Source: Catajapyx aquilonaris (taxonomy: Eukaryota). Taken from it: a stretch of DNA of 46,479 bases. Within the stretch, counting starts at the first letter, position 1. Each line of letters starts with the position of its first letter. Location of the stretch: contig JYFJ02003090.1 of NCBI GenBank assembly GCA_000934665.2, positions 1 through 46,479 on the forward strand. Reading direction: 5' to 3'. Below the pieces are notes generated by a model. It had not been told where the DNA came from. It saw nothing but the letters and a program-made list of their open reading frames with translations, and did not search any database. Position numbers and translations under genes: made by a program. Shown in pieces: positions 1 through 44,482 of the stretch.

Positions 1-3000
1 ACCGACACGTTATATGCTGCATCAGTATTCCTTTACTAAAGAATTCAACAGTATGCTGTATTCGCCTGCTCTGTGAATGACCCACGGAAGGTAATTAACT
101 AATTACAAATTCGAAATAAAATAATAATAATAATAATAATAATAACTGATTGACTGAATAATGAGCTGAATAAATCGGGACATGGCATAGAGACATGTAT
201 TAGTCAGATTGGTTGGCTAATTTTAAAAGTGGCGAAAACTAGATATTGCTGGTGATAAATTGTCTAATTGCTCATTGGTGTGAGTCACGATTTTGAAGGT
301 TTCGACCCAGAAATTGAGTGTCTGAATACATGCAAGGTCGCGAATATTGCAACAGAAGTGTGCTTCTTTTTTTTTTCTGAATGGAAATTCCACTCTAAAA
401 TTATGCCGAATCCACTAACAAACACGCGAGCTGGTAGAAGCAAGCTAATGTTATACTTTATAGCATAAATTTGCGGGCATTTTTAAAAACAAGATATCGG
501 TAATTGTTTAATCAAAACCGGAAAAACCGCGACGGCAGTAATATTACTTCATTATAAGAGAGAATAATATTGCTAATGTCTTATGTAAGATCAAGCCAGT
601 TCAAGAATGAAAATAATACACTTTGCAAAACATCATTTTTTCTGAGAACATTTGCATATCAAATTGCCATAATTTCAGCATATAGCCTAAACCCTAAAGA
701 AAGGTACCACTCTCTTGTCAAGTGTACATAAGATTAATTATAATTACTTAATAAGTGCAATCACTGGCCATATGAGTTCATTAGCTCCCAGAGTATCCAT
801 TGCTATAAGCACAGAAAATAATGTACATAAAACTAACAGTTACACTGAATTTTTATGATGCTGATTATGCAGACAAATGCACTGGTACTGTACCTGCTGC
901 CATACCGTATCACAAAGCAGCAGCCACATCACTGCACATACCTTTTAGAAACACCGGGGTGGCCTTCAGAGAGAAAAAATTTCCTCGAGGCCGTTGGTTT
1001 GGTGGAAGCAGACTCAACCGACAAGATGTGTATCACACTATCAGCTTCCTTTCCTCTCTTGTATGTGCAACTAAAACCTCACTTCCATCATGTCTCGTTC
1101 CTTCAGTTTTCCTTGGTCCTAACCAAGCAGCAGCTCCTCCGCATCTGCTGGCTCTCAACCATCTGAGAATTGAAAGGACTGGCCAATCAGCCAACACATC
1201 CTTGAAGACAACCGGCTTGTAGACAAAAAGCCCCTGAGGCTAAATCACTTTTTCCTATTCTGAAATGGGCGTGTGCGTGGCTCAGGTGTAATCAGAAATG
1301 AGCGGGAATCATGCCCACTCTTCCATGGAAAAAAAAGGTGACTCAGGCCGGAATCTCTATAGGGAGGGGTATCCTCTTGGCAGGTAATCACCTAACGACA
1401 TGGTGAAAGTACAATGGAAAGTACCTACATTATATGCTAACTGCAAGCAATAATTTTTTTTGAAGAAAATATGTATAGTTATTGTAAATCACTCTCAGGA
1501 TGGGGGGTACGGTAGGTGTCCTTTTCATCATTGGTGATGGAAAGAGCAGAGCTTGATTCCTTCCAGTTTATAATCAAAGCTAATGAATCACATCCCCCCA
1601 AGGATGTCCAGATCGTACTCTGCTTTAATTTTCATTGCCAGCTCTCCGATCTACACAGTACCTTGCACTACACAAATGAGCCGCTTCTGAGGCACAACCA
1701 TACCAACTGTTATGATGCATAAAATTATGTGCAGCATGGGACAATAGTAATTATTACTGCCTTTAACAACATGACATTTTACAACAAGTGCTCTCATGCG
1801 CACTTGTACATGCCGATGCCGCCTGGGGAATAATCATAAATCTATGCCTGTAAATTGACACTGTGATGAATGTTTAAGGAAGTACACATTCCATCAATCT
1901 GAGCAATGACACAATTATTAATAACTTGTAAGCAGGAAATGTGGGAACCAACACTGAATAATTTAAAAAAACCAATCACATGTTCTCTAATCTTAGTTTT
2001 AATTGTGCAACCCGTAATTGATCAGAGGTCGAGTTGAATTCCAGACAGTCTCGATAGATTATTATCTCTGTAGATTCGTGTCCGATATGCGAGGTTAATC
2101 GCCTCCTAAATTACACCCTATTGTCTCCATTCCCCTGATGAATATCAGTCATCATATGCCAAATGCATTCCAATCTGCCCCTCCGACCTACCACAGTTTT
2201 TGGAATCTATAATCTGTACGCTGCAGATATTTTATCACTGGAGTTATGATGCAATAAATAACTGTAAATTGGCCGAAAATGCCTTTTCCAAATTAATTCC
2301 CAAGATTTTTAAAAGTAAAATTGAACTCATAGTGTTGCTTCTCAATGTTACGTATACGTATGTTGAGCTAATTTCAATGAGATTGCCTTTTTCTGTGGAG
2401 GGCATGAGTTACATCCATTTAAACTGGATCACAAAAATAACAACTATATTTTTGTAACTTTCCAGACTGTTGAGAATTTTCAGACAAAGAAATGGACGGG
2501 AATGTCTCAAGGTTGGGGTGTGAGAATACAACTACTTCGGTCCCTTTGTAACACTTGTTGTACTGTACGAACACGTGAAGGTGATTGGACAGACACCAAA
2601 AAAATTGGATATTTAAAAAAAGATCAAGCAAAACTAGTTTGAGCCACTTCATATGGATTATGGAAAACATGATGTTGATTGTAACCCCAAAAAATAGAAC
2701 CTGACATTCAGCATCAGAAAATACATAAGAAATCAGCCAGAATGACCAGTGTTACAAAATCACTGTTGGCCAGGACAACTTGGCATGATGGTCATCAATA
2801 CCTAAATTGATGATACTACTTCAATGCCATTGCACACAAATGAGATGTGCACTATCAGACAAGTTCGCAGTACATCAGGACAAGTACAGATTATCAGGAA
2901 CAAAAAAAAAAAACACTCTTTATACACCAAATCAGGTCACAAAACAATTTTATTGTAAAGACAGAAAAAAAAAAATTACAACGAATTACATGGATTTAAC

Positions 3001-3657
3001 GTTATCGAAATATTGCATTGTACATCTGCTAGATATTCCAGTACGTCAACAACCTGCTCGGGCTAAATAATTCTGCATTGTCACTCTGCACCAATCTGTT
3101 GCAAATTCTGTTATGAAACACAATGGCAGACATACGTACAAATGTGATAAAGTTTGCATCCTTAAAAATAACATGAGTATGGAGTCGACAGTATGAGGAG
3201 AGGCAGAGGAGTGTGTAAGAAGACGAAAAAAAATTGTGCTCATGTACTATGAGGTGCAGAGTTTTCCCACACAACAGATACACCCTTTGGATCACGCAAT
3301 ATCAGAAAAAGCTGCTTGTAATTCCTATATATACAGTGTACCAGAAAAATAATTTATAGCAAAGACCATCTGAATAGATCACAAAATATCGACATTAAAA
3401 TGTAGTAAGAAGAACAAGCGAAACCTCATTTTGAGATTGCACACCCTACAAATGCAGCAGACGGACTCACACACTTTCTGAAAACTATTTCAACTACTAC
3501 CGTATTTTGAAATTGGCATTAAAAAACTGGGCAGGTTTCCACTAAGTGATGCAGTTTAATGCATTCTCGCTGAAAGACTCAATTAGGCGCTGATTAATGC
3601 AAAACATCGACACAGTTACTCTAATCGCCTGTCTATTCAACAATTGTATTTACACGC

Positions 3658-6600
3658 TCACTTGCTAAGGTAATCGAGAGAGCCAGAACATCTGATGAAC
3701 TGAACTACTGCATCAACAGAGCTCTCATTGGCAAGGCTGTACAGATTTTCTGAAATAAAAGTAAAAAATTTTGTATAGTATTATTTGCAGTCTTCTGTGA
3801 GGCTAATGAGGCGCACAGTACTTACGAGGAGGCACAAAGAAGGTGTCACCAGTGTGGCAGATGACCTCTTTCTCGTTCATCAGCAACTTCAGAGACCCAC
3901 TGAGCATACTACAGATCTGCAATTAAAATCCCCTCTGAGTAATTGTAGAAGCAGGAGAAATGATAAGGACCGAATTTGGCCATGTTTCCTTATGCCAAGA
4001 TTTTGACCTGGCAAAACAAGACCTGGAACATGTCTTTGCTTGACAACACACTTTCTTTCCCACTCGCACACATTATAGCAACATACCAGTGTCTCTTCAT
4101 CGCAGTAGGACGTGCTCTTTTTCTGCATGGCCGGGATCCTCATCTGCATAATTCGCAACTTTGCAATATCATCCATCCCAAACACTTTCCTGGCACTCAA
4201 GGGACTCTCATCATCCACAGGCTCTCCAGGATAAGACTGGAAGCTTGGCTCAGCCACATGCTGAACATGCTCTGCATCACGGAAAATTTAATGTGACTTT
4301 TAAAAAAACACTCACATTTGGAATCGTAAATAAAACATACTGTACTTACTGAAAGTAACCTCTCTCTTTGTGGCCTTATCATACACTCTCATGGTGGAAT
4401 TCCAACGACTGTCACCTACAAGGAATAAAAGCGTACAAATTATTACGAGACAATTTTTCGCCTCACCAAGATTTACAACTTGCAAGAACTAGACAGACCA
4501 AAAAAGAAGGCAAAAAAAGAATAAATTCCACAATGAACGACATGAACCGCAGACATGTGCATTATGATGTACTCACAGTTATCTTGGTCCCCATCTTGGC
4601 TCCTCTGTCCCTGTCCTCTCTTTTTGCCTCTTCCAGCAGGAGTCCTCTTCCCCATGCTAACCATGCTCTCTACACCTGAGGAGCTGTTAAATTCCTGCTC
4701 CGTACTCGACTTTCTTGCGGCTGGGCGACCTCTTCCCTTCTTTGCAGCCGATGGTTTCTTAGCAACCACAATTTTCTTGCCACTTCCTGGCTTGCGACCC
4801 CGCTTCGATGGTCCAGGGGTCACCACAGATTCCTGCTCATTCACTGACTCATCAGTCAGCGAGGAACGTGTCCGTCCACGTCTCTTTGGAGGAGGGGTAA
4901 TAACAACCTCTTCTTCAACATCAGTGACTGATTTGTTCGGCTGATTAGACGACCTCCTCCCTCGCTTCCTTGCAGAGGAGCTTCCAGCAGCATTTGTTGC
5001 AATCTCTGCGGCTGGCTGCCCTGTTTTGGAGCCAGGTTTCCTTCCACGCTTCTTCAGAGGCAGATCAGTTGGAGGTAGTTGCACCTTCTTCTTCGCAGCA
5101 TTCCGCTTATTCAGGAGGATACTGTTGGGTGTTGTGGAGTTCCTCTTTACTACCTGAAGCTCATTCAATGGTTTCCTCAGCTTTTCACGTTTCTGAGATG
5201 GCAGTTGTGGCTCGACCAGCTCTGTTGACTCAGTCTCCCATTCGGAGTCTGAGAGGGCACTGGGTGCAGCTAGCTTTGGCTTCTTCTTCGGAGTCTTCCT
5301 GTATCGCACCTGTTTATTAAAAAATTATTTATAACAGCATGTCCATTAAATATGTGTCAAGCACCCTGCCAGTGGCAACAGTTCAACACAAAAGTTTGAC
5401 GATTTGTTGCATAGCATGTAGTACCTTCTTCACATTCTGCTCCTCTTCTGATGTAGAGTCCTGCTCGGCAGGCACCAACCTCTTCCTGTTGTCGACATGA
5501 ATCGTCACTTTCTTCTGTGTCAGAGGTTCATAGGTCTCCGTCTCATCTTCTGAGCCACTGGCCATGTGGGAGGCTTCGGCATCGCTCATGCATCCAACCT
5601 CAACATTCCATGACTTGGACTTGCCATTTTCCAGGCGAGACGGTGGCAGTGAAGCATTTTCATTTTGGCGGGACGGGCTGGCAGTACTCGTGTTGGAACG
5701 AGACACCCTCCTTCCAACAGCAATTGTATGAACAGTGGCAACTTGCGATACACCTTCTTTTGAAGAACTTGGAGCATCTATGGCATTAGCTACGTTATTG
5801 GCTGTTCTTGCCTTTGCCGCGCTTTTGACAGTCTTACAAGAGGCACCCTTCAATGCAGCGGTAGGAACATTCTTGCCGGCACTTTCGACAGCTGACTTTT
5901 CAGTGCCACTTTCGTTGATGCGTTTCTGAGCAGGTTTTTTAGCAACGCTGTCTGGAAGGCTGCTTTTGATTGCTGATGCAGGATTGGCACTCTCAACGAG
6001 ACCCTCTTTGGCATTCAAGGTGCCGTTGGCAACTTTGGCAGCAGGAGTGTTGATAGGTGGGAATATATCCATATCATCGTCGGAAATCTCGAAATCAACT
6101 GTAAAGGGTTCAAAAGAAAATTGTTCAGTCAGAGAAGCATATCAGAAGATTCAGGCCATATTAGCAAGTTACTTGTAATGTAACATAACAAATTAACTTT
6201 GCCCTGTCAGAATTATTGGTTTACATACATGTGATTTCAAAATTTCCTGGCTTCTTGGCTGGCTTTTGAGCATCTATATCATTGTTTGCCTTGAGAGCCT
6301 GTCTGGGATTTGGCGGCATGAGCTTCTTGACAGTGCTGCTGACAGCTGGTTGCTCCTTCACAGACTTGTCTGCCAGCGGTGTTGCATTCTTGACAGGATT
6401 GTCTGCAACTGCTGCAGTTTTCTTAACGAAACTGGTTCTGGAAGCAGGATTTGGCTTCTTGATCGAGGATGCATGGGCCACGCTAGGACGACCAAGTATT
6501 TTGGGAATTACAAAGGTATGGTCTTCATCATCTGATTCATCCATGACTGCAAACGAAGTACAAATCAGTTAATTATTATGTATATTTTTAACTATGCAAA

Positions 6601-7871
6601 TTATAAGTGAAAGTACACAAAAACTGAGAGTTACAGGTTTGAATTTACTCACAAAGTCGTAGTGGACCTGTAGTTGACTCATCTGCACGTGCGGTAGAAA
6701 ATTCTAGATGCCTGAAACAAATCAAATCAGTAATTTTTGCATGGTAAAAAAACATACACGTGACAACATCCAGTTAGAATTTGGTGCCATCTAGGCTACG
6801 AATTATAAGAGTGCACAAGTATAGATCCACCCCTTTTGTTGAATCGGGGAGGAAACCAACAGGGTACCACATTGAAGTCAAAATATAGGGTAAGTTGGGG
6901 GCACGTGCATATATGTATTTTCTGATAAGTCTCGAATCTCATGCTGCGTAACCGCTCCAGCACTGTACGTAAGAGGTTAAGGCGTACTATCACGCTGTTA
7001 TTGCTCCGTTTTGATGAAATAATTGGGATGGTTTCTAAAAAGGGGGCCCCACTTGTCCCTAACTAGATATGGTCAGGAGCAAGTCCACACCTAATACGGG
7101 TATATGGATCAAAATCCAGTATTGGAGGAATACAGCTAGCCGTTGCCAAAAGAGGTGGCAAGATATCTTAATGTGGTCCGACTGGCGACAGGCTCATATT
7201 GAACACTGGTGTGAAAACACTTCCACATAAATGCAGCTTATAATTTCAGTACTGCTAGCTAACCTGTTGCAGAGTAGTGAACTGCAACTACTCTAAATCC
7301 TTACACAGTACCCCACTTTACCCTACAACACAATGCAACTACCTGCCCAACCAGAACATGGAAAAATCAGGATCAGCTTCTTATTGAACGATGAAAGTTT
7401 CCCCTAACGACGCCTTGCTTTCCTTTTTCACCCGCACACCCTGTACCCCAGCACCTCACCCATTCAATGTGTCATATTTACCTCGCAGCATTTCCATTAC
7501 TAGTGGACGTTCCCGCTTGGTTTTGCTGCGACTTCCCTCTGAAGATGGTGGACCAACAGGCTCTCCCACTGGGCTGCGGCTGAACCGACTCATTCCCCGA
7601 CTCCTCAATATGGGTGCTATCTGCTGACGGTTCCCCAACGTTTGCAATGGTGTCTTCAACCAGTGCCCTGTGCTCCATCCCGACCAGCGGCCCATCCTCC
7701 TCTAGGTCAGGCCCCATCCTGACAATCTGCAAAATGGCAACAAGCACTTTGTACCTTTTTTTGGCGACCGGAACTGTTCCGTAATGGGTCGATATGAATA
7801 ACCTGCTGTCAGTGCGTATCATCATCATCATCATTCATTTTTCCTTGGGGAATATGCCGTGAGTGTAATGA

Positions 7872-7927
<56 letters not shown>

Positions 7928-8061
7928 TACTATTATTATGTGGGGGGGCTAGGACCAACCCCACTCGTAATTAATTCTGGCCAAACATGTTCTAAATCGA
8001 ACAACCGACCCCCATTCTAGGACTTGGCGTCTTTTACCTTCTCCGTCAGCCTAGGCAGCAT
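3658..8061 (-). CDS. CENPC: CENP-C/Mif2-like kinetochore protein, 10 exons, ~828 aa; long low-complexity/basic region plus C-terminal cupin
   Basis: Phase-consistent GT-AG exons 8061-8038, 7726-7482, 6711-6653, 6546-6229, 6098-5425, 5309-4577, 4415-4350, 4271-4087, 3916-3826, 3749-3658 (2487 nt). The spliced C-terminus STMRVYDKATKREVTF...LSARKVFG...MRIPAMQKK...EETLICSMLSGSLKLLMNEKEVICHTGDTFFVPPQNLYSLANESSVDAVVQF matches by eye the CENP-C pre-cupin/cupin (human-type ...TGDSFYVPSGNYYNIKN...). The 5' exons are less certain than the 3' ones. Confidence 0.85.
7872..7938. repeat. (ATT)n microsatellite in CENP-C intron 1
   Basis: Seen directly. Confidence 0.95.
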
Positions 8062-8999
8062 CGGCGTGTTGTACCCTGTGCTCGCCCCCCTCCTCTAGAC
8101 CCAGGGGCCAGCCACGGGGCGGGCTAAAGACGCTTCAGTTGTCCTGCAAAGAGCCGGCGTCCGTCTTCCTTCTGTAGAACAACCAGGGACAACGACCGAC
8201 CCGAATCGAACATGGACGATGCCGCCTTTTCGCGCTCTCTCTAGTGGGGGAAAAGGGCGGGGCCTGTTGGATCCGAAAAACACATAGCAGCTGATGCCAC
8301 ACTGCTGCTGTGAATCCAAAAAAAAACGGCGATTGAGATACGGCCATTTGGAATTAGTTGGGCCGAAAATAAAAGGCCGGCGAATATCAAATGCGGCAAA
8401 AGGGATGCACCACAATAGTCGCGAGTAGTTAGGAAGACTATGTAAACATGTAAGTTGGAATGCCCCATGTATTGGCACAGCTGTAGCATCAACAGGTTAA
8501 TAACTAATATGGAAGTAGCAGTTTTCTTTGTGTTTAAGCTGCATAATGCCAGGTACAGATTCGGCGGCTGCAATTAAGAAAGATGACTGCCCATATTTTA
8601 CAACAATAGGACGATATTAATATCACAAATAGGCGTACATAAACAAAAATTGAAATTTTAATATTTAATGTTTAATTAATGGTAAAAATAAAACGGCCAT
8701 CTTGGAGGTCTTACCCAATAGCGTTCAAGATACGCTACGAGCTACAACATGGCGGGACATTGACGCCCTAATTACATTTAATTTGATTGCCAATTACTTA
8801 TTTTTATGACCAAATATTGTGCATGACAGTCTCGTACATTTTTTATTTAAATCTGTACTAAATATTTCATCTGGCTACTACCATTTTTTATTCTGTTTAA
8901 AAGGCGAAACGGTTGATGCGGGTTGATGTCCCGCATTCATTATTGTCATTACTCATTACCAGTGCTCATTACACATTGTGCTTTTCAGATGTGCCCACC
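8062..8999. promoter_or_regulatory. Probable bidirectional promoter and 5' UTRs shared by CENP-C-like and HAUS3
   Basis: Divergent ATGs 939 bp apart. CpG-rich, with E2F-like TTTCGCGC (8228-8235), GC box GGGCGGGGC (8255-8263) and YY1-like CGGCCATTTGG (8341), CGGCCATCTTGG (8694), CAACATGGCGG (8745). Confidence 0.55.
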
Positions 9000-9057
9000 A
9001 TGAGCACAAGTCAGGACGTCTTCAGTCCAACCTTCCCTGCAGATATTTCCAGGCAAG

Positions 9058-9122
<65 letters not shown>

Positions 9123-11357
9123 ACTTACAATAATTTCAGTAGTGGAAATGATTCAGATTTGGCCCCACAAGTTCAGACGAATGGTGAGCTGTTCCGTCTG
9201 AAGCTCATTGAGTTGGGTTGGCCTCCAGCCAAGTCTTGCAGACCAGGCGACTTCAGCTGGCTCTTTGAGAACCGTGCGGCGCTGCCCTTCCTCAACTGGT
9301 TCATGACCTGCGTCGACAAGGACAATGTGCTCACCACGGAGGAATTGGAGAGGTACATGTCGTGTCTTCATAAAATGTTTGGATGCCCCCATGAAGACCA
9401 AAACAAATATTATTTTCAAAAGGTACGCCCAGTTGGAGCGAGACGGAAAGGTTGTAAGTGTCGCAGAACACGGAGCTTTGGAGGTGGTGAAAGAAAGGGA
9501 AGAGGTACAGGCTGTGGAGGAAATATTGGCCGAGAGTGACCGCATTAAGGCCAAAACTGAAGTGACCAAGAAGCGCTCCAAGCGTATGGACGCCATGGCG
9601 GAGTATCTCAGGTATGAGCAGCTTAAAGAGTGATATAAGCAGATAACATTAATTATTTTGTAATTTCAGTTCTGAAGTGAATCGAGTGTCGGAGAACATT
9701 CAGAAACATGAGGCTCGAAAGGCTACTGCGGAGAAGGAATATGTGATATATAAAGAGAGGCTATCGTCCACTTTCTTAGAGCTGGGCGAGGCCGTATCGG
9801 ATTTGCAAGACGCCGTCGAATCTGTTTCTGCCGATGTTTTTGCGAATTGTGCAAATTCGGTAAGTACTTTCGAAACTGGATTCCTGGCATAAAGCGACAT
9901 GATCAGCAACCATGACCGTTGTCTGCAGGAGCAAATGCCATCCTTCATGTCTCTGATTGACCTGCGACCCTATCTGGAAGAAGAGAAAAATTTAATTGAT
10001 TCTCTCACTCAAATCAACAAGAAGGTAATTTCAGAACCTGGCAAGTTCTGTGAGTGTTTAGAGGAATCAGAAGAGGCGATTTGCTCGGATTATCCAGTTC
10101 GTTTGCGGGAGATTGTGTGCAAGTAAGTAGGTTGAGCTGCGAATTTGCACCATGAATTATGATAAAATTTAATTTACATAAACGAAAATAAAACTTGTTA
10201 CTAATTAGGCTGCATTTAGCCGGATGTTAATAGGCGCAGGTGATGTGGAGTACAAATGGTCTTAACGTAACATACATTTGATGCGTCTTTTTTAGTACCA
10301 CCATATGTAATAAGGCGACATTACGACATATGGTTCAGCAAGCTGCCACCGAAGCTGTTGAAAAAGAAATGGAAAAGCTTGTAGCCAATGGTGAATCAGT
10401 CGGGGACAGTTTGATCCAGCCAACAGATGCAACACTCACGTTCTTGAAGAAGTTTGAGGAAGACACTCTTCCAAAGCTGCTGGAGGATCATCAACGAGTT
10501 ATACTGCTTCAGGTGTTGAAAAAGGCAGCTCAGTGCAAACTCCAACGATTCAAGTGCCGCAACAAAATACAAGAATACTTAGTAAATGCTGCTCTGGACC
10601 AAAGGGCACGTTTGGAAATAACGAACCTTCTGCTAAACTTGGAAGACAATCAGGCTGACACTCTCATTTCCATGGTGAAAGAGACGAATTCATGGATTAA
10701 CGACCTGGCCGCATGGTACAGGAAACAGATTGTAAGTAAATTTTGGATGCAATTTTAGACTGAGGCTTTAACTATTGTCCTTCCAGGATCTGCAGGATTC
10801 ACATTGTCAACGTCAAGGACATCAACCGAAGGATTTGGTGAATACTTTGGAGCGATTGATGAAGTGCGAGAACAGTGGAGTTCTCAAGAGCGTTTCTTCC
10901 ATGATGTCACAGCTGGCCGCTTTGAAAGATAAGCAGACGACTAACTTTGGCATTATAGCCAAGGGCAACTGTAAACTGTAAGAATCTTGTTGGTCAGTGG
11001 ATCGGTCTAACTTTAATAACATTTAATTTCTCAACAGGCGACAAGAAAACGATGTACTTCTTAAGTGCTCATTTCCTGTGTCACTTACGCGACCGATATT
11101 GCTGCCACCATTGTTCCACCACCGCATGGCTTTGATCAAGACGAAGGTGAAGGAAGTTGAAAATGTCGCTATGAAAGATACCCCACCAATCGAACAAGAA
11201 CTTCAGGTGAGTAATCTTCGACGGTTGCACCAAGCCTGTTGATACTTACACATCTCAATTACAGGCTTACAAGCAACTAAGTAGCGGAAAAACGCTATGG
11301 ATCACATTTTTCCAGAAGCCCGAGTTAATGATGAAGCTCCATCGAAAGCCCCGATAA
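9000..11357 (+). CDS. HAUS3: HAUS augmin-like complex subunit 3 (Dgt3), 9 coding exons, ~575 aa
   Basis: GELFRLKLIELGWPPAKSCRPGDFSWLFENRAALPFLNWFMTCVDKDNVLTTEEL matches the HAUS3 N-terminal domain; coiled-coil body; C-terminal LWITFFQKPELM. Exons 9000-9052, 9140-9352, 9423-9611, 9670-9859, 9929-10122, 10296-10731, 10787-10977, 11038-11206, 11265-11357 (1728 nt, open). Start context CCACCATGA. Confidence 0.88.
9059..9120. repeat. (AAT)n microsatellite filling most of HAUS3 intron 1
   Basis: Seen directly. Confidence 0.95.
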
Positions 11358-12036
11358 TACGACTGTTCTGAAAATGTTACTGTTCTTGTTTTGTAATATT
11401 TATTACAGCACTAATTACAATTAAATACAATGAGTCACAAACAGCATCACAATATCTTACACTTACAGAATGTTTCCTGCACGCAACCTGTAAATAAATA
11501 GCACTGAGCATGTTTTTTTGTTTTTTTTGGTTTTCATTTGGATGAGGGCCTGTGCAGAATTTTGGAGAACCATCTCGATAGAGCTGTGTTAGCAGGTAGG
11601 GGAATAGTTTGGTTGATTGGATCACATGGTGGTTGAGAGCATCCCGATCCAGTAGTTGTCTCTTCTTTATTGCGAACACATGTTTTCAGGCCCAGCGCAG
11701 TGCAAGGATCTGTGTTGCTCTTTCCTGCGGCAAGATTACATTTGTTATCAGTCCTGGTACAACCCCTGTTGTTAGTCGTTTAGGTCATGCATACATGTTG
11801 TACGCTACTGTTATATGCTCAAGTTACTCATTGTACCAATACTGACCATACCGAAATGTTCTGACTTATTTTTTGATTCCAGGAGGACTACCCATCAGTA
11901 TTATAAATGCGAGATCACAGAAAGGTGCACTACCGGTACAAAAAGGTCTACTCTCACCAACAATCTACAATAGTTAGTACACCCGACTAATTAAAAAAGT
12001 CCTACGCCAACCAGTCCAGGGGAGGTTAATAACAAG

Positions 12037-15000
12037 TCAATCCATCGTCCAGGTTAATAGGTTAGCCGTGCTGAAGCAAACAGACAACACCACTGCAACC
12101 AAGACAACTGCACCATTTCCACTAGAGGCCACGGTGGAACCAATGAAAGTTTTCTCTGGTGCTGAAGAGGAGTTACCTTCGCTGTCACCGGTTGAAGGAA
12201 GCCACACGTTTTCACTTCCTCCACGACGGAGTGGGAGACGTGTCTCTCTTGGCTTGGGTTGGGTGTGATCTGGACCTTTTGATCCTGCCTCGACAGGAAT
12301 CATGTTGAGGTCTTCTAACGTAGAGTTGCTCAGAGGCACCTCCGACACATGCACAGGATTACTGAAGTCCACTCCGGACATTGACTCTTCTTGGGATGTG
12401 CCAGTGGAGTTGGCTTCTGCCCAAAAATTATTCACATGTACCAACTATACCCAAGTGGAAAGTACAAGAGTTGCGTACCTAGGTTAAGTTTCTCAATTAT
12501 TTCCCGGAGAAGGCTCTCCTCCAACGAGCTGCCAATGCGAGTTGAGTTGATCATCAGGCTACGTTTGAATAGCCTTTCAAACCGATGCAAGTTGTATTCT
12601 GGACGGTACAATGGAGTGTCATCTTCACCAAAGTCCTGTCAAAAATGAACAATTATTAATCATTGACAATCCCAAAGGTTGACATGTACTTACAACACAT
12701 CGTCCTCCAAGGCAATATGCGACTTTCCCTGCGATACCTCTGCTGCAGTCAGATCCTGATGGGAACCAGCCATCCTCACCGTTGACCATGTAGAACCGGT
12801 ACGACACCCGTTCGTCCTGACAAGCCACTTTGCATGGACGGTCAGGGTCATCTCGAGACGAAGACAACTGCATACCGAGACCAGACAAACCGCTGACTCG
12901 TTGCAGGTACTTGCTGCACACTGAGGTCGCGTACTCGAAAGGTGTCTTCAATCGTGGACAGTCCTATACACAGATATGTACATAGGTTTATTGTTGTTGT
13001 GTGTCTGTACAGTGTACGTACCGGCTTATCGGGACGACATAGCCGGACACTCGTGGTGAGTCCGAGGCATGATTGTCCGCTGCCTGCGATGGTGTTTCCT
13101 CCTCGACATTCCCTGGTCACCAGCTGAAGTCCTCGAGCAGGTGCAAGACATCCGAAGCGACAAGGACTGGAAGGTGTCCATCTGCTCCAATCTCTGGATA
13201 TCGGCAGGGAGTACAGGTCCTCTGCAAGACCTGTACCAGATCCGGATGCTGAACTCGGTACCAGGCCAACACCTGAACCGATATCCAGAGGATCAGGACA
13301 GGAGGTATCTTCCTGTCGATGAACACTGTGCGGATCGCACGAGAATTCCTGCAAATACACATGGTGCATCAGTATACGTACCATTGTTTTGGGTACGCCG
13401 TACTACAGTACCTGGCATCGACCACCGATGCAGTAAGCACCTCCAGAAGGTCTCCTTCCTTCCAGTTGACAAACGGTACCATCCGGAAAGAACCAACCTC
13501 TACTCTTGGAGCCTTCACCACGTTTGTAGCACCATACCGAGCACGCTCTTTCAGCTGTACAAACAATACAATATTGTTACGTTCAGGTTAAGTACAGCGC
13601 AGTTAACAGCAAAACGTACGGTCTGAACTGATGCTCTGGTATCCCTTTCCGGTCAGCTCGCCATCAACTTCAGATGCCCTTGCGCATATTTCGTCAGCGT
13701 ATTCCTGGATTGTGGTTCGTCGTACCGATGAACATTGCTGCCGAATACACATAGGTAATAAACAATGCACCTGTCTATCCGTATGATCGACCTACTTGCA
13801 CAGCATTGCAGGCGATGTATCTTTTGTCCACGCCCAGACACTGAGGGTGCGTCCTGGCTGTCTCGCATCGTCGACTGGCCAACATGATGCCGGTACTGCC
13901 AGACGAAAGCCGTCCGTCCTCGCCGTACAGACACCCAGATGCACAGTCGGTGAACGGAGACCAACGTCCCCAACCACTTTCGTGAGAATCCCTATCCTCG
14001 AATCCGGGTATGGGAGCGTCTCGATGGATGCATCGACCGGTACGGCACCACTGAAATCAAATGACTTTACATTTTAGATCAGTTCTGTACGGGTACGGGC
14101 GGTGCATACCATTCTGTCTCCGCATTTTGTCCCTTCCAAAGCAGGGTGAGACGTCCACGTGTAGTGTTCACGACGACAATGCAGATCGCGACACACGTCT
14201 GCCATCGGCTGCTGTGGTGCATGGTAGCTTCCTCTGCCGTACTTCAGCACACCTGAAACACACTTAGTTATGATACACACTACATACAAAAATGTAAAAA
14301 AACAAACACTAACATTGGTTATCCGCATCAAATCTCTCTCCAGGAAGTCTTCCATCAGCTCCGTGGTCCAAATGTGACGATGCAACGCTGCTGTCTCGAA
14401 GACATCTCGACTGCGACGTGCTGTTACAATCAACAATTGCGTAAGTACATCGCAATGATCGTGTGCACTGTGAGAAACTAACGCACGGAAAGTGACCGGG
14501 CATCAATATCAAAAAAACTCAATTACAACATCACACGAATGCTCGATTACTCATTGTGCTCACTATATACTTTCGCCCTCGATTAATTTGAGCGTGCAAA
14601 AAATGCTAGGCGAGAAGTGAATGAACCAAAACCGTCAAAAAGAATCAACAATGCATTTTGTTTGTTTGTTGTGTACAAGGGCGACTTACTCTAGAAACAT
14701 TTCCAAATATCGTCTGCTGCATGGTGACCATGTGATTTTACCGCTGCCTAATGTTGGAGACATGATGTAGCTGCCTGGATCACAATCGTTGTCTGCTTGA
14801 GGACCATCGTGTCTCATTCCCAGGCTGTGATGTTTGAAACAATCGGATCATATTAATAAAAAAAGAAGATCTGACCTAATTTGTTGTGAATGGTGTCTTA
14901 CTTGTGTCCGATCTCATGAGCCACGACATACACGCTCTCAAAGTGTCTTCCCTCGTTGACTGTACAGCTGCTGGATCTTGTACACATCCCAGCCACTGGA

Positions 15001-18000
15001 GCCAGACCTTCACATTGGATACATTGCAGCAATTAATAAAAGCAAACCCATAATAATTGTCATTATTTTTAAATGAATTTTGGTGTCACTTGTTTTCGAG
15101 CTACATGATCGATCATATTAATCATGTATATCCACTTGGCATCCTTTCTCGTACTTGACACTTTATTTCCGCAACACGTACGGCATAAATTTCTGCGATG
15201 ATTTACACCCTGAAGCAGTCAACTCCAAGATTAGCGATTGCACTTTCTTGCACTCTCCCTTTTTTAAAACCCCTCCTCCTCCGGTACAATGTGACAGCCA
15301 CACTTTCACCTTTTAACCTGGATGGGTTGTTTGGCTGCAAGTTGCTGTAGGAACTCACCTACGACTTGGTTGCTGATTTTTCCGTTTCGATTCACGACGT
15401 AGAGGTCGAGACCTGTGAGGATGAGGGCATGATCCCAGTGAAAGGGGTCGGCATCACTGGATGGGTTTTCACCACGTTGCCACTTGCAAAATGAGGTCAG
15501 GAAATGGTCAATGTCGTAAGGTCGAACCAGGGCGGGAGGGTCCGATGCTAAGATCTCCAGCCTCTTCAGTACAAACTGAACCGGGTAGCCCAGAGAGGCG
15601 TCGTTGTACAAGTGTTCAACCTTTATGGCGAAGGTGAAAGGAGAAGAGAAAGGGTCAGAGGTCGATCCCTGTGGGTGAAAGTGCAATATGGAGGATGGGA
15701 CTCACGGCGTTGACCAGGGTCAGCACGATGCGAGCCACTTCCTTCTCCGTGTCTGCCGGGAAGTTGATTTGCATGTGTTTGTACAGGTCACGGTCGACGA
15801 ACACTGCTGTTTCGATGTAAAGGTGTATCGGATCTTCGAACGAACCTTGTCGACGCTCGCGACGGAAAAACCTGCAGGAAGACGCCCAATATAAACAATG
15901 TGTTGGACACATTTAGTGAGCAAAGCCCATACCCGTTGGTATCACGTGGAAAGTACGGAAGGTACGAGCTTCGTCTCTTCCTCGTCGAATCCGAATGATG
16001 ATGTCGACATACTGTCTTGGCATGGTTTCGTCTCTGCCAAATTAAATGGGGCACATTGCCATCGGTGGACCTCTTGTGGAATCTCTGGGGCAATGGGGCT
16101 ATAGTGAAGTACTCATCTTTCGATGTGATGAAACCACGCTACATGATGTAAAATAAATTGGTATTACATACAGTATCGTACTATTCGTATCAAGTATCGC
16201 CCGGTCGCACGACCAGAGTCTGGTCGTGCGACCGACGCTCAAATCTTTTGTGGAACCACTGTACACGTTGACTGCCCAAATTTTGCATGACCTTCTGGAG
16301 GTCCACGCTCTTTCGGTGAATATTTTGAGAGCTAACCTCACCAAGGTTAGTATCTCACCTATAAAAACCAGCCTAATAACAAACTGACAGGTAGGGGAGT
16401 GGTGTGCGACACGAAATCGTGCAGGTATACAATGATAGGTACCAGGAAAAAAAAGGGTGAAGGATTTCAAGATGAAAAACACACCCAGCTCGTTCTAGTA
16501 GCATCATTTCACTCTAACAAAAATTTGTGCCACATTTCTCAATTACAGGATGTCGCATTATTGTATAGTTGCACACACACACACAAAAATCGAAGCTAAC
16601 CGTAATTTTTAGCACAAGCCGTTTTTTTAAAACCATCCGTGGTGGCAAAAGTGACACCCTCGATTAAAATATATTTAAAGGGAGGGTAATCTGCAATGCC
16701 ATCTAATTCAAAAAATGCCCTTGGAGTAGGCCAATGAGTGCCTTCCTCGACACGCCTGAAAACAAGACCGCAACAAAGGGCGCTGTGCAGTGTCCCAGGA
16801 CCAGTTTTCTGCTTCAGAGTCTCAAATATCCTGGCATTGACATTCCCATGTGCCGCATAACTCACCGCTGTATTTGGCCCCAAAAACTGACCATGACCAA
16901 AAAAATTTACAAACTTTCAAAAAAATGTTCGGCCCAATTTTTATGTGTAGGATACAAAATTTCCGTGTCTCGCAAAGAGTGTTACAAGGAGAGCGCGCTT
17001 TTGATACAATCGTTGTTTTTTTTTTGCATATATGAATTGATAATGGTGCATTCGGATGTTCTCAAGATTTGGGACGAAACGGGTTTTTGCGCAACATGCA
17101 AAATCCGATCACTTAATGTCACACGCCAGCAAGTATATGCATTGTGTCATAAACTGACATCACGCCAAACCTGTGTCGCAACTGCATATTTTAATAATGC
17201 AAAAAAATGAGGAGACACACGACAAAAGATGAGACTGAACCGCGTCGTTGATATGTAGGTCGTAATTCACGCCTTTTTGAACCCCGTGAGAGGAGTGGTC
17301 ACCATAATGTTTTTAAAAGACATTGTTTTTTTCCTTCAGTACTCATTATTATTTTCTCTCCCCATATATTCAAGTCGAGCAATTAATTTCTGGGAAGCGC
17401 ACAGCACCACTCTCACTGACCGCAATCCATCCGGTCGCTTACTTGCTTCGGCGTCTAAATCGATGTTAGTGACCTTCCTCTCTACGAAGCCTGCGTGAAT
17501 CTTGTCTAACATAGTGACACACTAACAGCAAAAGGTCGCCGTTTCCCAACACGTCACGGTTTTTGTGTACGTATGATACGTCCATAACAACAAAAGGCCC
17601 AACATATATGATGTGCTCGCTGGACCTAATATTATTATTATTTTTTTATTATTATTAGAGAGGTGGTGTTGTATGGGATGGGTGAACAATTCGTACAGAT
17701 TGTTAACTTGCAAAGCAGGTTCCTGCTCTTTTCAAGGTTGGGAGCCAATGTAACAAACGTTAGAGAGTCTTACTATAGGGTGGATCACCTTCGCGGTTTC
17801 TTATCTCGGAGATGATTCTCCGATTCATTTCCTACTTTGCATACGATGATTGGGGCATCAATGAAAGGGACAGGATGCTCTAAAAATTGTGTAGCCCACA
17901 TTATTCCTAATTCTATGCAATGAACACAATATACACAATATATGTCAGTAACAAAAATAACTCATTAATTGCAGTAGTTTGGAAATAAATATGTATACAA

Positions 18001-21000
18001 AATACTAGGCAAATTTATCACAGAAATATACCAACTCTTTTAGAAGAGCTTTGTTTATAAATAGCTAACTTTTCTGTTGCAGGTGTGAAAATCACGATGG
18101 CAGGGTAGGTTTTAACAATGATGGATATAACTTTCTTTGGCTAACGCACGCAATGCTTTACTACCCACACAACCTGCTTTCATAAATCAACATGTCAGTA
18201 ATGCTATGCTAACACAAACACAGCAGGACAAGAAGCAAGTCTACTGTACTACTGTTCGCCTACAGTAAAAAAAAACGTTGCATCTAGTAGGCTATACATT
18301 ACTTTACATGCACTTATCCTGCAAAAAAACGTGTATACCACCCATTTTTTTTAAAAAAATCCAAGGGATGTTGCACTTGTCTAGGGCGCAATAGCGAGAC
18401 CTGTCATTATTTCCGCCATAACCGGAATATCCGCTATGTGAGATTCCGCTGTAATGAGCTTTCACTGCGAACTTGAGCACAATTCCAGCTCGTATCTGGT
18501 AAAGGCCACCCTATTTTTGGTACTGTACACTGGGTGTGACAAACGTGCTTTATTCGTAGAAAGCCCATCAATAAACACGGTTTTTGACGCGTAACAACCG
18601 CTCAGCCATACATGTTGGCGTCACACATGAAAATAATTCTACTGCAAAAAAAAAATGCACGAAATACTAAAAACATGTACACACTTTGTTAATATTATAA
18701 ATTTTATACCTTTGTGGGCATTATATCAGGATGGCGGTTTTATGTGCTTTAATTTTTTAAGTGTGTTTATACGTACCATTCCTCCGCAAAGTCCGACTGC
18801 AACAGAGTCTGAAGACGTGGTGTTGAACCCATTTCGCACCACTTCTCCTTGGTAAAAGCAGCCTGCATCTTCCCATACCTCGTCGAATATGTCCGTGTAA
18901 TTATCTCTCCGAAGCAGCATGACAAAATTGTCTGCCAGAAGATTCCTCGAAGGCCACAGTGTAAAGTTGAATGTCTGGTTGAGAGCCTGTAAGGTCATCT
19001 GCTCCGGGAAGTTTGCTTCTTCGACTGACCTGCGACGACGGACTCGAGGCAGGAGGTCGGGGGTCACGATGGAAAAACTTGGCACTAATAATGTTGAGAA
19101 GGTGTTAAAATGTGACGAAACTGTTGCCTTGACATTCAGTGGTACTTACCGTGTTTGGAAGACCCAAAGTATAAGTGTCTCTCTTGAGGTGTTAGAAGTT
19201 GAAGTAAGTCAGCATCATTTAACTACAAAAAAAATGATTTTTTTTGAAAACCGGCATTAAATTATTTCTACTGTGTTGTCACATTATTATTATGGTTTTG
19301 ATATTTGTGGTGCACATGCATGCATTTTAGTACATTTGTGTTGAAGAGGATGTAGGCGGAGACTGCTCTTGTCTGATCATGTTCTGTATAATTTTATCTG
19401 AAAATCCAGGAGGTAATGCATATGAGGCTGTTTCCATGTACTTTCAAGCAACGAGCACAATTTTACATGAAATTGGACCAAAAGTTTGATATCACGTATA
19501 GCAGACTTTGTATTAAACAAGCTTCAGTGAATAATGGGACGACTTCCTGCCCAGTAGCCTGTTTTTTCATTGATGAAAATACCAGTTATTATATTATACC
19601 TAGTGCTATAAAATGACAACATTCATTGGCAAATTGTGCTAATAAAAATGTCTGCACACCAAAACATTATGGAGATTGATCATTTAATTAGTTCCTAATA
19701 CTCTAGCAGAGTCGCTTTCTGTTTCAAGCATAAAACTATTTTGAGACTCACTTCCTGTTTCTGGGCCACGTTCGTCGCGAAAATTTCACTTCTGATGTGT
19801 TTATTTCTAAACCACTCAAGATATTGTAATACGACGCTCGTAAATTACAACCAGCACACACAAAAAAAGAAATCTCAGTAACGCATTTTTTTTTTCCTCA
19901 TTCCCTTTTCGGGACATATACTTTCCCCGCTTCTCTCAGTATAACGGACTCGGTTACTATAGAAAGGAAATCCTTTCTGTCGGTTGCATATGTCAGAAGG
20001 GGTTCTCCAACATTTTTGCCAGCCTAAACTAAAGAGGCAACGCTCGTGATCAAAACGCATGTCCTCTCTTCTCATTTCCGTGCTCATTACCAGCCACGAG
20101 GAAGTCAAGTTCTAAATCTTTATGGTGGAAATAGTGTCACCAAAACTAATCCGTGACATAAACCATAAAAATGCGAACTACCTTTTTTTATTTTTCTTCA
20201 TTCGGGGGGTTACATAGCATGGCGGCATGTTTCTTTCGTGTCTTTTGTTTCAAGATGAGCTATCAATTTTGATAAGAAAACTTCCGCCAAAATTTTTTTT
20301 GCACCACCTCTTCGGATTGGATCTCAAAACTCACAAACCGTGATTGTCTTCCGGAAGGAAATGCAATTACTTATTCATATGACGCTGCACATCATGATGT
20401 TATGTGTGCGCGGCTTGTAGTTGAAACAAGTTCTAGGAAGTGTGTCCGATTGAATTAAATAACCTATTACAGTACGGCTCAATAATTCAGCCCCCCCCCC
20501 CCTTCTTAAGATGGCTTGATTGCCTCAAGGACGATTTCGCATTGTCGGGATTGTAGGTCAACAGCTTTGGCGAAAGCAATCACTATTGACTGCTGGGAGA
20601 TCAAGTTGAGCTGCTTCGGATACACAAAGGAAAATGCACCGGAAAACACTAGGGAACAATGGGAAACTAATTGGGGACAATTCACGATGGGTTTGGTCGC
20701 CCCTCCTGAGAGACCAATTTGCATTCCATGTCGCAAATTACAGCAGAAAATGTCATCATCGCTCGTAACGGCACAGGTTGCATGGCCTGTTCTTTTTTTA
20801 ATGCAGATATAAATTCTTTTGTATGGACAACACAAATATGAGATGTGTATACAATGCAATATGATAATAAGTCAGTGACACTAACGGATCCAATAATTTG
20901 ACCCTTCCTGTTTCCTCTTGCCCTCAGGTCATTCGTTCAAGTCGAAAAAATATTCAAGTGACAGTTTTCTGGGTGGTGAAATCGTGTTGGGTTTTTTTTT

Positions 21001-34520: not shown

Positions 34521-34990
34521 CCTAAGAGAAGTTGCGTCCATCTGCTGAGACTCAGTACACGGTTGGTGTGACAAGGTAGATGAACAGCAGCACACCCGCG
34601 ATGCAGAGCATGGACAGAAGGGCGGAGAGCCCAACGAAGGCCATGGCTGCAGTGAAGGGAGCGTTGAGGATGAAGTGGAAGTCGTCCAGCCTTCCCCTGC
34701 ACACCAGGTCCGGTCCGTCCCACCCCAGAAAACAGAACTTCCAGAGGTCAAAGTAGCCGGCCGAGTTGGAGTCACGGGTGTCATCCCCGATCCACTGTGG
34801 CTGGACAAACACCACCACGCATGTGATGGCCAGGCAAACGGTGAACACGACCCACAGCACACCAATAGCCTGGAAAGAGACACAAAAGTGTTCGTGGTTC
34901 GAATGGAAAGGACCCGTGTGTATATGGTGCCTTTGAGTCCCTGACGTAGCTGGTGGCGTAGAGCTGCTGAGAGGACTCCGGGTACTCCAT
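34521..34990 (-). pseudogene. Truncated LHFPL3/4/5 (Tmhs-like) tetraspan pseudogene
   Basis: LYATSYVRDSK|AIGVLWVVFTVCLAITCVVVFVQPQWIGD...AGYFDLWKFC...CRGRLDDF...FTAAMAFVGLS matches the LHFPL N-terminal half. Weak GC donor at 34930, TGA at 34552-34554 after TVY, then a frameshift before WTQLLL; no TM3-TM4 exons found downstream. Confidence 0.75.
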
Positions 34991-35691
34991 CTTGTTTTAT
35001 AGGTGGGTAGTACAGCTTTCTGGTGGTGCGTACTGTTCAGCTAAGTGCATAGGGACCTAGTGCTGACTTTCCCGAGTGGCGGAAAAGCAATTTGAGCTCA
35101 AACAAACGTGTAGAACAGAAGTTACAGACATTTTTAACCATACCCGCAGCATCCCATTTTCCGATTCCGCACGGCCATGCTGTATACACCAAATTCCCAA
35201 TAGTAGCACACTGATCGATACTATTGCGGGTTTTTTGCTCTCTGTATTTTACAGATATCACAATGCCAAGTCACTGAAGTCAGGATAATATTATTGGGAA
35301 TGAACCAATATTTCCAAGAGCACCACTCTGACACTATAATTATACAAAGTGATTTGATTGGCACAACTTGCTCAACTGTCTCGGATTTTTAAATATCTTT
35401 AAAGCAAAACTATAGGCTACTGACTTTCAGCTGATACTCACGATTCACTTCATTGCCTATTTTAAATTCATAGTTATAGGCAAGAGCACTATGTAATAGT
35501 GAAAATGAAATGAAAAAGTGGTTCATTTATTTGTAGGCAAAACATAAATATTCCTCATGATCACGTGAAGTCTTTCATATAGCCCTAATATTATTGTCCA
35601 CGTTATTGTCTCAGAACATTAAATTGTCGCATTCACATTTTTGTCACGAAGGATTATGGAAAGACACCATTTAGAGATTTAATAAATAAAT

Positions 35692-36128: not shown

Positions 36129-36340
36129 CTGATCACTTTCAATGGCCATCATACCTGTAGGCCTACTGAATAATTAAAACGGCTTCAATTTATCATTTAC
36201 TCTCTCATTAATATTTCATTTTAAATACATTTGCATAACTTAAGAAGCAATAAATTACATTTTTCTCTCGTCTTAATAAGCTGCTTCGCTGGTATAAGTA
36301 TACCCGGTGTGGCCAAAACAATAATAATTTTTAAGGTCGA

Positions 36341-44148: not shown

Positions 44149-44230
<82 letters not shown>

Positions 44231-44482
44231 CGTTGTGGGTGACATACTGTGCTCATACCTGTAATACTGAGGAAATGCATATCCCAAAATATCCCGTTCT
44301 TCGACCATACGATGCACCATCGCTGGGGTGTGATCGACGTAGTTGTATCCGCTTAATAACTGAATAAGTAAAGATAGCAGCGGAGCAAGCAAGAGTTCGA
44401 AGGCTGTCACTATGTAGTGTCTTCTTCTCAATATCAGATTCTTCCACATTAGCAGGAGAAAGTGATGCACGCACAGCATCAT
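36341..44482 (-). CDS. ABCA-subfamily (ABCA3-like) full ABC transporter, multi-exon, apparently intact
   Basis: N-terminal [17 protein letters not shown]1 with EKETGIK|ELMKMMG; NBD1 GHNGAGKTT (~41750), [21 protein letters not shown]2 with [15 protein letters not shown]2 [32 protein letters not shown]-terminal [18 protein letters not shown]. The junctions checked by hand are phase-consistent. Confidence 0.92.
44148..44230. repeat. (AAT)n microsatellite in ABCA intron 1
   Basis: Seen directly; it is the source of the poly-I and poly-L artefact ORFs. Confidence 0.95.

What the first reader, a model, noticed from the sequence alone, without database searches (positions are those of the whole stretch)
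3658..8061. CENP-C-like protein with intact cupin but no CENP-C motif: possible CENP-A-independent kinetochore
Seen: the spliced ~828-aa product has a convincing CENP-C cupin. Its only tryptophans (ACWST, KSWNV, SEWET, SRWNS) are not in the R-x-R...P..(Y/W)W context, and the introns just upstream of the cupin are too short (~60-160 nt) to easily hide such an exon. Established: the CENP-C motif docks on the CENP-A/CenH3 nucleosome and is the most conserved part of CENP-C; its loss is reported together with CenH3 loss in holocentric insect lineages. Inference: either this lineage has an unusual, possibly CenH3-independent or holocentric, centromere, or this is a neofunctionalised CENP-C paralogue.
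Basis: partly seen in the sequence, partly recalled or inferred. Interest (0 to 1): 0.85.

Follow-up and report, generated by a model that had tools for sequence, protein, structure and literature searches.

The report
CENP-C-like gene lacking CENP-C motif
An arthropod gene that looks like the kinetochore scaffold CENP-C is transcribed and spliced as proposed and has no recognisable copy of the short motif that normally grips the centromere's special histone, as already reported for dragonflies, but whether this animal has lost that histone could not be tested.

Summary
The 10-exon minus-strand model (8061..3658, 828 aa) holds. Spliced contigs of one public run bridge 8 of its 9 introns at exactly the modelled sites; the ninth has no cover. 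A published insect CenpC motif scores at shuffle level against the protein and against all six frames of the locus, introns included. The motif's absence is therefore well supported.

The cupin is less secure. Exon 9 gave sub-threshold hits to four cupin families. PF11699 was never listed, and PDB and a 1.84-billion-protein HMMER search found nothing. The CENP-C label rests on three things: the architecture, a metal-free cupin motif-2 with Tyr for His, and by-eye likeness to insect CenpC sequences in Drinnenberg 2014.

That paper already describes dragonfly CenpC with a cupin, a decayed motif and no CenH3. It also failed to find the motif in monocentric Tribolium and cricket. The CenH3-independence and paralogue readings could not be tested, because no genome is held.

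Verdict: a real gene, probably a motif-less CENP-C homologue, and a new member of a known kind.

The parts
3658..8061 (-). Coding span of the 10-exon gene. Exons are 8061-8038, 7726-7482, 6711-6653, 6546-6229, 6098-5425, 5309-4577, 4415-4350, 4271-4087, 3916-3826 and 3749-3658 (stop at 3660-3658). The product is 828 aa.
   Evidence: Splice model. Spliced contigs of run X1 bridge 8 of the 9 introns.
8062..8205 (-). 5' UTR as far as a contig reaches. It has no upstream ATG and an in-frame stop 12 codons before ATG 8061. The first ATG has a weak context (C at -3). The next ATG, at 7717, has A at -3 and G at +4.
   Evidence: Contig record 6 covers 8038-8205. UTR reading.
3096..3657 (-). 3' UTR covered by two overlapping contigs.
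   Evidence: Records 1 (3096-3466) and 2 (3442-3749, spliced on to exons 9 and 8).
6500..6546 (-). Acidic-hydrophobic motif 1, aa 110-125 (FMDESDDEDHTFVIPK).
   Evidence: Sequence. By eye it resembles VIDDSDDDVTVVTPKR of mayfly CenpC and the VVVSDEEE / VIAVSDDEED stretches of dragonfly CenpC (supplement 3 of PMC4359364). A possible partner-binding site; this is inference.
6055..6098 (-). Acidic-hydrophobic motif 2, aa 216-230 (FDFEISDDDMDIFPP).
   Evidence: Sequence. A second copy of the same kind of motif; this is inference.
4695..5054 (-). Basic array of five AT-hook-like RGR motifs, aa 526-645 (KKRGRKPGSK, RKRGRRSS, KRRGRTRSS, SKRGRKPGSGKK, KKGRGRPAARK). Exon 6 has a pI of 10.98.
   Evidence: Regex and pI. 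Drosophila Cenp-C has two predicted AT-hooks (PMC12724597). Libellula vibrans CenpC shows four KRGR(P/T) motifs in the visible part of its supplement cell.
4350..4415 (-). Exon 7, aa 685-706 (CDSRWNSTMRVYDKATKREVTF). It holds W689 and the stretch just before the cupin.
   Evidence: The W has no Arg at -9, no Pro at -4 and no aromatic residue at -1, so it is not a CENP-C motif.
3661..4271 (-). C-terminal cupin-like domain on exons 8, 9 and 10 (aa 707-828). The motif-2 skeleton G791-x5-P797-x-Q-x2-Y802-x3-N806 has Tyr where metal cupins have His. No His-x-His motif 1 is present; the region's only His residues are 708, 711 and 789.
   Evidence: Exon 9 matches Cupin_2 at E 2.3e-4, MPI_cupin_dom at 4.6e-3, AraC_binding at 0.01 and Cupin_3 at 0.038, all below their cutoffs. 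His count. The published insect CenpC cupins show the same P-x-G-x2-Y-x3-N/G pattern (by eye).
8206..8817 (.). Roughly 600-bp region shared with the divergently transcribed neighbour, with E2F-like sites at 8228-8235 and 8393-8400.
   Evidence: Pattern TTTSSCGC, recalled. Two of the window's eight matches lie here. These are consensus matches only.
9120..9539 (+). First coding exon region of the divergent neighbour, HAUS augmin-like complex subunit 3.
   Evidence: PF14932 at E 4.6e-7, 30.0 bits against a cutoff of 29.4. A GT..AG joint at 9350|9421 in run X1.

Best explanation
This is an expressed arthropod gene for a CENP-C-type inner-kinetochore scaffold that has kept the C-terminal, metal-free cupin but has no CENP-C motif. 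Earlier notes on this genome point to a springtail-like hexapod. Shown: the exon model, the absence of the motif in the mRNA and in the introns, cupin-type sequence in exon 9, the RGR array, and the HAUS3 neighbour. Inferred mechanism: the cupin dimerises the protein. The disordered N-terminal two thirds carry two acidic-hydrophobic motifs that bind kinetochore partners. The basic exon-6 array of five AT-hook-like RGR motifs holds the dimer on DNA. The protein would thus reach chromatin through DNA and partner contacts, not through the arginine-anchor-plus-tryptophan docking on a CenH3 nucleosome. It is the same kind of protein as the odonate 'CenpC with decayed motif'.
For: Spliced contigs confirm 8 of 9 introns and both UTRs. 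The protein is 828 aa with four W. The motif scan sits at shuffle level in the protein and in six frames of the locus. Exon 9 hits four cupin-clan Pfam families and nothing else. The motif-2 skeleton has Tyr for His and there are no metal ligands, as in the stick-insect and dragonfly CenpC cupins printed in supplement 3 of PMC4359364 (by eye; for example NEKEVICHTGD here against NETERLCKPGD in Ladona fulva, 6 of 11 identical, ungapped). The order of parts is known for CENP-C: a disordered N-terminal region, AT-hooks, then a C-terminal cupin (Drosophila, PMC12724597; human domain map, PMC8245036). Dragonfly CenpC likewise has KRGRP repeats and no motif. The gene shares a region of about 600 bp, with two E2F-like sites, with the spindle gene HAUS3.
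Against: No computed homology to any CENP-C was obtained. PF11699 was not listed for any of 8 exon pieces at E<=10. PDB phmmer gave 0 hits for exons 8 and 9 and only chance hits (E>2) for exon 4. HMMER of exon 8 against 1.84 billion proteins gave 0 hits. Three word-index searches found nothing. The cupin call rests on a 30-aa exon below Pfam's cutoff. The likeness to insect CenpC is by eye. The CENP-C motif, which PMC4359364 calls universal in CenpC, is absent. Nothing here shows localisation or function.
Confidence: 0.58

Rival explanations
1. It is the ordinary CENP-C of a monocentric, CenH3-bearing animal, whose nucleosome-docking motif has diverged beyond recognition. One candidate is the stretch around W379, where SRLENGKSKSWNVEV has Arg at -9 and Glu at +3.
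For: R370...W379 has the same spacing as the human nucleosome-binding pairs R522/W531 and R742/W751 (PMC8245036). Drinnenberg 2014 could not find the motif in monocentric Tribolium and cricket either. CENP-C evolves fast: no relative of exons 6, 8 or 10 was found in any search.
Against: The stretch scores 14 against the insect motif, below the mean shuffle maximum of 16. It lacks the Pro at -4 and the aromatic residue at -1. With four W and about 6% Arg, one Arg at -9 is expected by chance roughly once in four to five proteins (my estimate).
Confidence: 0.2
2. It is a neofunctionalised CENP-C paralogue, and a second, motif-bearing CENP-C elsewhere in the genome does the canonical job.
For: Cenp-C duplications exist in Drosophila (titles and abstracts of 10.1101/134817 and PMC12724597). 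Earlier notes of this scan record cupin-only CENP-C paralogues in other eukaryotes (unchecked).
Against: There is no second copy in the 46-kb window. The gene keeps a full-length, CENP-C-like architecture and sits beside a mitotic gene. Nothing positive points to a second gene, and the genome could not be searched.
Confidence: 0.12
3. It is not a kinetochore protein at all, but a nuclear AT-hook protein that happens to end in a small cupin-like beta domain.
For: All sequence searches for CENP-C homology came back empty. Generic cupin families, not PF11699, are what exon 9 matches.
Against: I know of no other eukaryotic family that combines a long disordered region, AT-hooks and a C-terminal metal-free cupin (from my own knowledge). 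The motif-2 pattern with Tyr for His matches the published insect CenpC cupins. The HAUS3 neighbour and the E2F-like sites fit a cell-division gene.
Confidence: 0.1

Closest known systems
[quoted passage not shown] 2014, eLife, PMC4359364
   Same: A C-terminal CenpC-type cupin is kept and no CenpC motif is recognisable. There are several KRGR(P) AT-hook-like motifs in a basic region and acidic Ser/Asp/Glu stretches next to hydrophobic residues.
   Different: Sequence identity in the cupin is low by eye, so this is not a close relative. The odonate case comes with a documented absence of CenH3 and with holocentric chromosomes. Neither is known for this genome, which earlier notes place nearer to springtails (unchecked).
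Canonical CENP-C (human CENPC, Drosophila Cenp-C, yeast Mif2; stick-insect and mayfly CenpC)
   Same: The order of parts is the same: a disordered partner-binding N-terminal region, DNA-binding basic or AT-hook motifs, and a C-terminal dimerising cupin. The stick-insect cupin has the same P-x-G-x2-Y-x3-N pattern.
   Different: The canonical proteins carry one or two CENP-C motifs whose Arg and Trp are needed for CENP-A nucleosome binding (R522/W531 and R742/W751 in human; R1101 in Drosophila). Here there is none.
CENP-C-less kinetochores of Lepidoptera, which are CENP-T/CCAN-based
   Same: If this lineage lacks CenH3, kinetochore assembly would likewise have to be CenH3-independent (PMC12678787 introduction).
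   Different: Lepidoptera are reported to have lost CENP-C altogether. Here a CENP-C-like gene is kept and expressed.

Membership tests
CENP-C / Mif2 family | CENP-C motif: an Arg anchor and (Y/F/W)W docking on the CenH3 nucleosome, called 'universally found in CenpC proteins' in PMC4359364 | tested here: not met
   Regex in six frames found none in the gene. The stick-insect motif gave a best score of 16 against a shuffle maximum of 16.0 +/- 4.1; six frames of the locus gave at most 19; the self-score is 113. Spliced contigs show no hidden exon.
CENP-C / Mif2 family | C-terminal CENP-C-type cupin (Pfam PF11699 CENP-C_C) | tested here: inconclusive
   The domain is split over three exons and only unspliced pieces could be submitted. 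Exon 9 hits Cupin_2 at E 2.3e-4 and three more cupin families, all below their cutoffs. PF11699 was not listed. PDB gave 0 hits. By eye the pattern matches the published insect CenpC cupins.
CENP-C / Mif2 family | N-terminal Mis12-complex binding and a CCAN (CENP-HIKM/-LN) binding region | tested here: inconclusive
   There were no Pfam hits for exons 2, 4 or 5, and PDB phmmer of exon 4 gave chance hits only. Two acidic-hydrophobic motifs resemble stretches of mayfly and dragonfly CenpC by eye. The human CCAN-binding residues E302, F303, I305 and D306 are named in PMC8245036, but no alignment to them was computed.
CENP-C / Mif2 family | Cupin homodimerisation and kinetochore localisation | not testable with these tools
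   This needs the spliced domain for folding and bench work for localisation.
Metal-dependent cupin enzymes | Motif 1 G-x5-H-x-H-x3,4-E-x6-G and the His of motif 2 (pattern recalled) | tested here: not met
   There is no HxH. The only His residues in aa 685-828 are 708, 711 and 789, and the motif-2 His position holds Tyr802.
AT-hook DNA-binding motifs | An R-G-R-P core flanked by Lys/Arg (recalled definition) | tested here: inconclusive
   One motif has the GRP core (GRGRPAARK). Four are RGR variants (RGRKPG twice, RGRRSS, RGRTRS). Pfam listed no AT_hook hit for exon 6.

The most novel reading that the evidence does not exclude
A second hexapod lineage, outside Odonata and possibly springtail-like, has kept the CENP-C cupin scaffold but lost its CenH3-docking motif because CenH3 itself is gone or no longer used. 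The kinetochore would then be anchored by an AT-hook array on DNA plus CCAN partners. This would be an independent, non-insect transition to CenH3-independent chromosome segregation.
Probability: 0.22. Interest if true: 0.75.

Novelty: new member of a known kind. Interest (0 to 1): 0.45.

Why it matters
CenH3 and the CENP-C motif that reads it are the usual foundation of the kinetochore. The held literature documents lineages that dispense with them in holocentric insects. A transcribed CENP-C-like gene without the motif in another arthropod lineage gives a concrete place to look for a further loss or rewiring. It also gives a protein in which DNA-binding AT-hooks may replace histone reading. 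The library held nothing on springtail CenH3 or holocentricity: 1 unrelated review for 'springtail' + 'CenH3', and 8 papers for 'Collembola' + 'holocentric', of which I read passages of two and found neither on this point. If CenH3 turns out to be present, the gene is still useful as an example of how far CENP-C can diverge in a monocentric animal.

Tried and rejected
Relatives
- The search for homologous proteins with exon 6 (longer), exon 8 (longer) and the exon-10 ORF (near) found none. The exon 9 query was too short.
- HMMER of exon 8 against 1.84 billion representatives gave 0 hits.
- A metagenome scan with exon 8 matched 520 patterns, none confirmed. Exon 9 was too short.
- The protein atlas gave nothing usable for exon 8. 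An ABC-transporter exon, tried for a taxon hint, gave only bacterial ABC clusters.
- Look-alikes among the scan's own windows: none.

Genome-wide checks
- No whole genome is held, so CenH3, CAL1/HJURP, KNL2, CCAN subunits and a second CENP-C were not searched.

RNA evidence
- No RNA holder is listed. The one run that holds the stretch has an unknown library kind, but its contigs are spliced.

Folding
- Complex prediction with the exon 8, 9 and 10 pieces as three chains gave no verdict (score 0.01, mark 0.34).
No cupin phylogeny, HHpred-like test or fold search was therefore done.

Candidate motif remnants
- SRW at W689 was rejected. It lies 4 residues before the RVYDKATKRE stretch that leads into the cupin, and it has no Arg, Pro or aromatic residue at the expected places.
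- RRSSNQP (aa 559) was rejected, scoring 6.

Other
- Rfam found no RNA family in the window.
- The published CenpC sequences in the supplement were compared by eye only. Their cells are cut at 400 characters, so the cupins of Libellula and Ephemera were not visible.
Full report
**What is there.** The finding lies on the minus strand. Reading GT..AG introns gives ten exons: 8061-8038, 7726-7482, 6711-6653, 6546-6229, 6098-5425, 5309-4577, 4415-4350, 4271-4087, 3916-3826 and 3749-3658.

One public run (coded X1, library kind not on record) holds 37% of the sampled words of the locus. When its contigs were laid on 2500..9500, 13 aligned, 10 of them at 99% identity or more. They carry CT..AC joints, which are GT..AG on the gene's strand, at 8 of the 9 modelled introns. 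These skip 76, 170, 78, 161, 115, 106, 770 and 311 bases at exactly the modelled boundaries, one contig each. The 130-nt intron 6228..6099 lies in a bin with depth 0.1 and is unconfirmed. Because it is not a multiple of three, it must be removed to keep the frame.

The contigs extend the mRNA to 8205 at the 5' end and to 3096 at the 3' end. ATG 8061 is the first AUG of the observed leader and has an in-frame stop 12 codons upstream. The only base difference, at 5455, is synonymous. The gene is therefore real, transcribed and spliced as proposed, and the short introns before and inside the cupin hide no extra exon.

**The missing motif.** Its only aromatic pair is FF794-795, inside the cupin. 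Four regular expressions for R-x-[ST]-x-R...P-x-x-[YFW]-W and looser forms (pattern recalled) found nothing in any of six frames within the gene. The six loose matches in the 46-kb window all lie elsewhere.

As a tool-derived reference I used the 21-residue CenpC motif of the stick insect Sipyloidea sipylus, printed in supplement 3 of Drinnenberg et al. 2014.
- Its best ungapped BLOSUM62 score on the spliced protein is 16, against a self-score of 113.
- The maximum over shuffled copies averages 16.0 +/- 4.1, and 48% of 2000 shuffles reach 16.
- The best score in six frames of 3000..8400, introns included, is 19.

W379 does have Arg at -9, the spacing of the human nucleosome-binding pairs R522/W531 and R742/W751 (PMC8245036, passages). 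It lacks the proline and the aromatic neighbour, however, and scores 14, which is chance level. I conclude that no recognisable CENP-C motif is encoded.

**The cupin and the CENP-C label.**
- Of 8 exon pieces scanned against Pfam at E<=10, only exon 9 hit cupin families: Cupin_2 at E 2.3e-4 (21.3 bits, cutoff 27.2), MPI_cupin_dom at 4.6e-3, AraC_binding at 0.01 and Cupin_3 at 0.038.
- PF11699 (CENP-C_C) was never listed.
- PDB phmmer gave 0 hits for exons 8 and 9.
- HMMER of exon 8 against 1.84 billion proteins gave 0 hits.
- Three word-index searches, a metagenome scan and the protein atlas gave nothing.

What the sequence shows directly is a cupin motif-2 skeleton, G791-x5-P797-x-Q-x2-Y802-x3-N806. 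Tyr stands where metal cupins have His, and there is no H-x-H motif 1. This is a metal-free cupin.

The stick-insect and dragonfly CenpC cupins printed in the supplement have the same P-x-G-x2-Y-x3-N/G pattern. The strand before it (NEKEVICHTGD) matches Ladona fulva NETERLCKPGD at 6 of 11 positions without gaps. That comparison is by eye, not computed.

**Rest of the protein.** Exon 6 is very basic (pI 10.98) and carries five RGR motifs at aa 526-645. One has a canonical GRP AT-hook core and four are variants. Two acidic-hydrophobic motifs, FMDESDDEDHTFVIPK at aa 110 and FDFEISDDDMDIFPP at aa 216, resemble stretches of mayfly and dragonfly CenpC in the same supplement.

Drosophila Cenp-C is described with two AT-hooks, an NLS, the motif and the cupin (PMC12724597, passages). 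Human CENP-C has N-terminal MIS12 binding, a CENP-HIKM/-LN region, two nucleosome-binding motifs and a dimerising cupin (PMC8245036). Apart from the missing motif, the architecture is CENP-C-like.

**Surroundings.** About 600 bp upstream, on the other strand, lies HAUS augmin subunit 3 (PF14932, E 4.6e-7, above its cutoff), which is also spliced in run X1. The shared region holds 2 of the window's 8 matches to the E2F consensus. These are consensus matches, not evidence of function, but they fit a cell-division gene pair. The window holds no second copy of the gene and no Rfam family. Further along are an ADAMTS-type protease gene, an LHFPL-type gene and an ABC transporter gene.

**Comparison with what is known.** Drinnenberg et al. 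2014 (PMC4359364; passages, supplement rows) report the following:
- CenpC is absent from the insects that lack CenH3.
[quoted passage not shown] The authors attribute this to loss of CenH3.
- They failed to find the motif in monocentric Tribolium and cricket.
- Hymenoptera and cockroach have the motif but no cupin.

The state 'cupin kept, motif gone' is therefore already described, and absence of the motif alone does not diagnose loss of CenH3.

The cupin here is too unlike the Ladona sequence to come from a close relative. Earlier notes of this scan name springtails as the nearest relatives of other genes of this genome (unchecked). The held library has nothing on CenH3 or holocentricity in springtails.

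**Verdict.** The gene is real and the absence of the motif is real. The CENP-C identity is probable (about 0.6) but rests on architecture and on by-eye likeness. The CenH3-independent reading, the holocentric reading and the paralogue reading all remain open, because the rest of the genome could not be searched. I rate the finding a new member of a known kind, with moderate interest. It would rise sharply if the genome proved to lack CenH3.

Noticed in passing
window 8206-9539: The CENP-C-like gene and HAUS augmin subunit 3 are transcribed divergently from a shared region of about 600 bp that holds two E2F-consensus matches (8228, 8393). This may be a bidirectional cell-cycle promoter for a kinetochore gene and a spindle gene.
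   Followed up: partly
window 6969-7230 (intron 2 of the gene): Five loose-ended contig alignments of run X1 end here, and the run's three alignments at only 90-95% identity may be these. This suggests a dispersed repeat inside the 770-nt intron, with copies transcribed elsewhere in the genome.
   Followed up: no
window 6322-6406 (exon 4): A 33-nt tandem repeat of 2.7 copies at 74% match lies inside coding sequence, giving an imperfect 11-residue repeat in the disordered N-terminal region.
   Followed up: no
window 7872-7939 and 9059-9121: There are long trinucleotide microsatellites: (ATT)x22.7 in intron 1, and (ATA)x21 just before the HAUS3 coding exon. A similar long run shows up as long poly-Leu/poly-Ile reading frames in the ABC-transporter gene region near 44.1-44.3 kb.
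   Followed up: no
window 8061 and 7717: The first AUG has a weak context (C at -3, C at +4). The second in-frame AUG, 11 codons downstream in exon 2, has A at -3 and G at +4. Leaky scanning could give two N-termini.
   Followed up: no
window 12000-19200 (-), 34552-35040 (-), 36300-44500 (-): Other genes in the window are a reprolysin/ADAMTS-type protease (Pep_M12B_propep, E 8.6e-9), an LHFPL-type tetraspan protein (L_HMGIC_fpl, E 1.2e-17) and a large multi-exon ABC transporter (ABC_tran, E 1.5e-10).
   Followed up: partly
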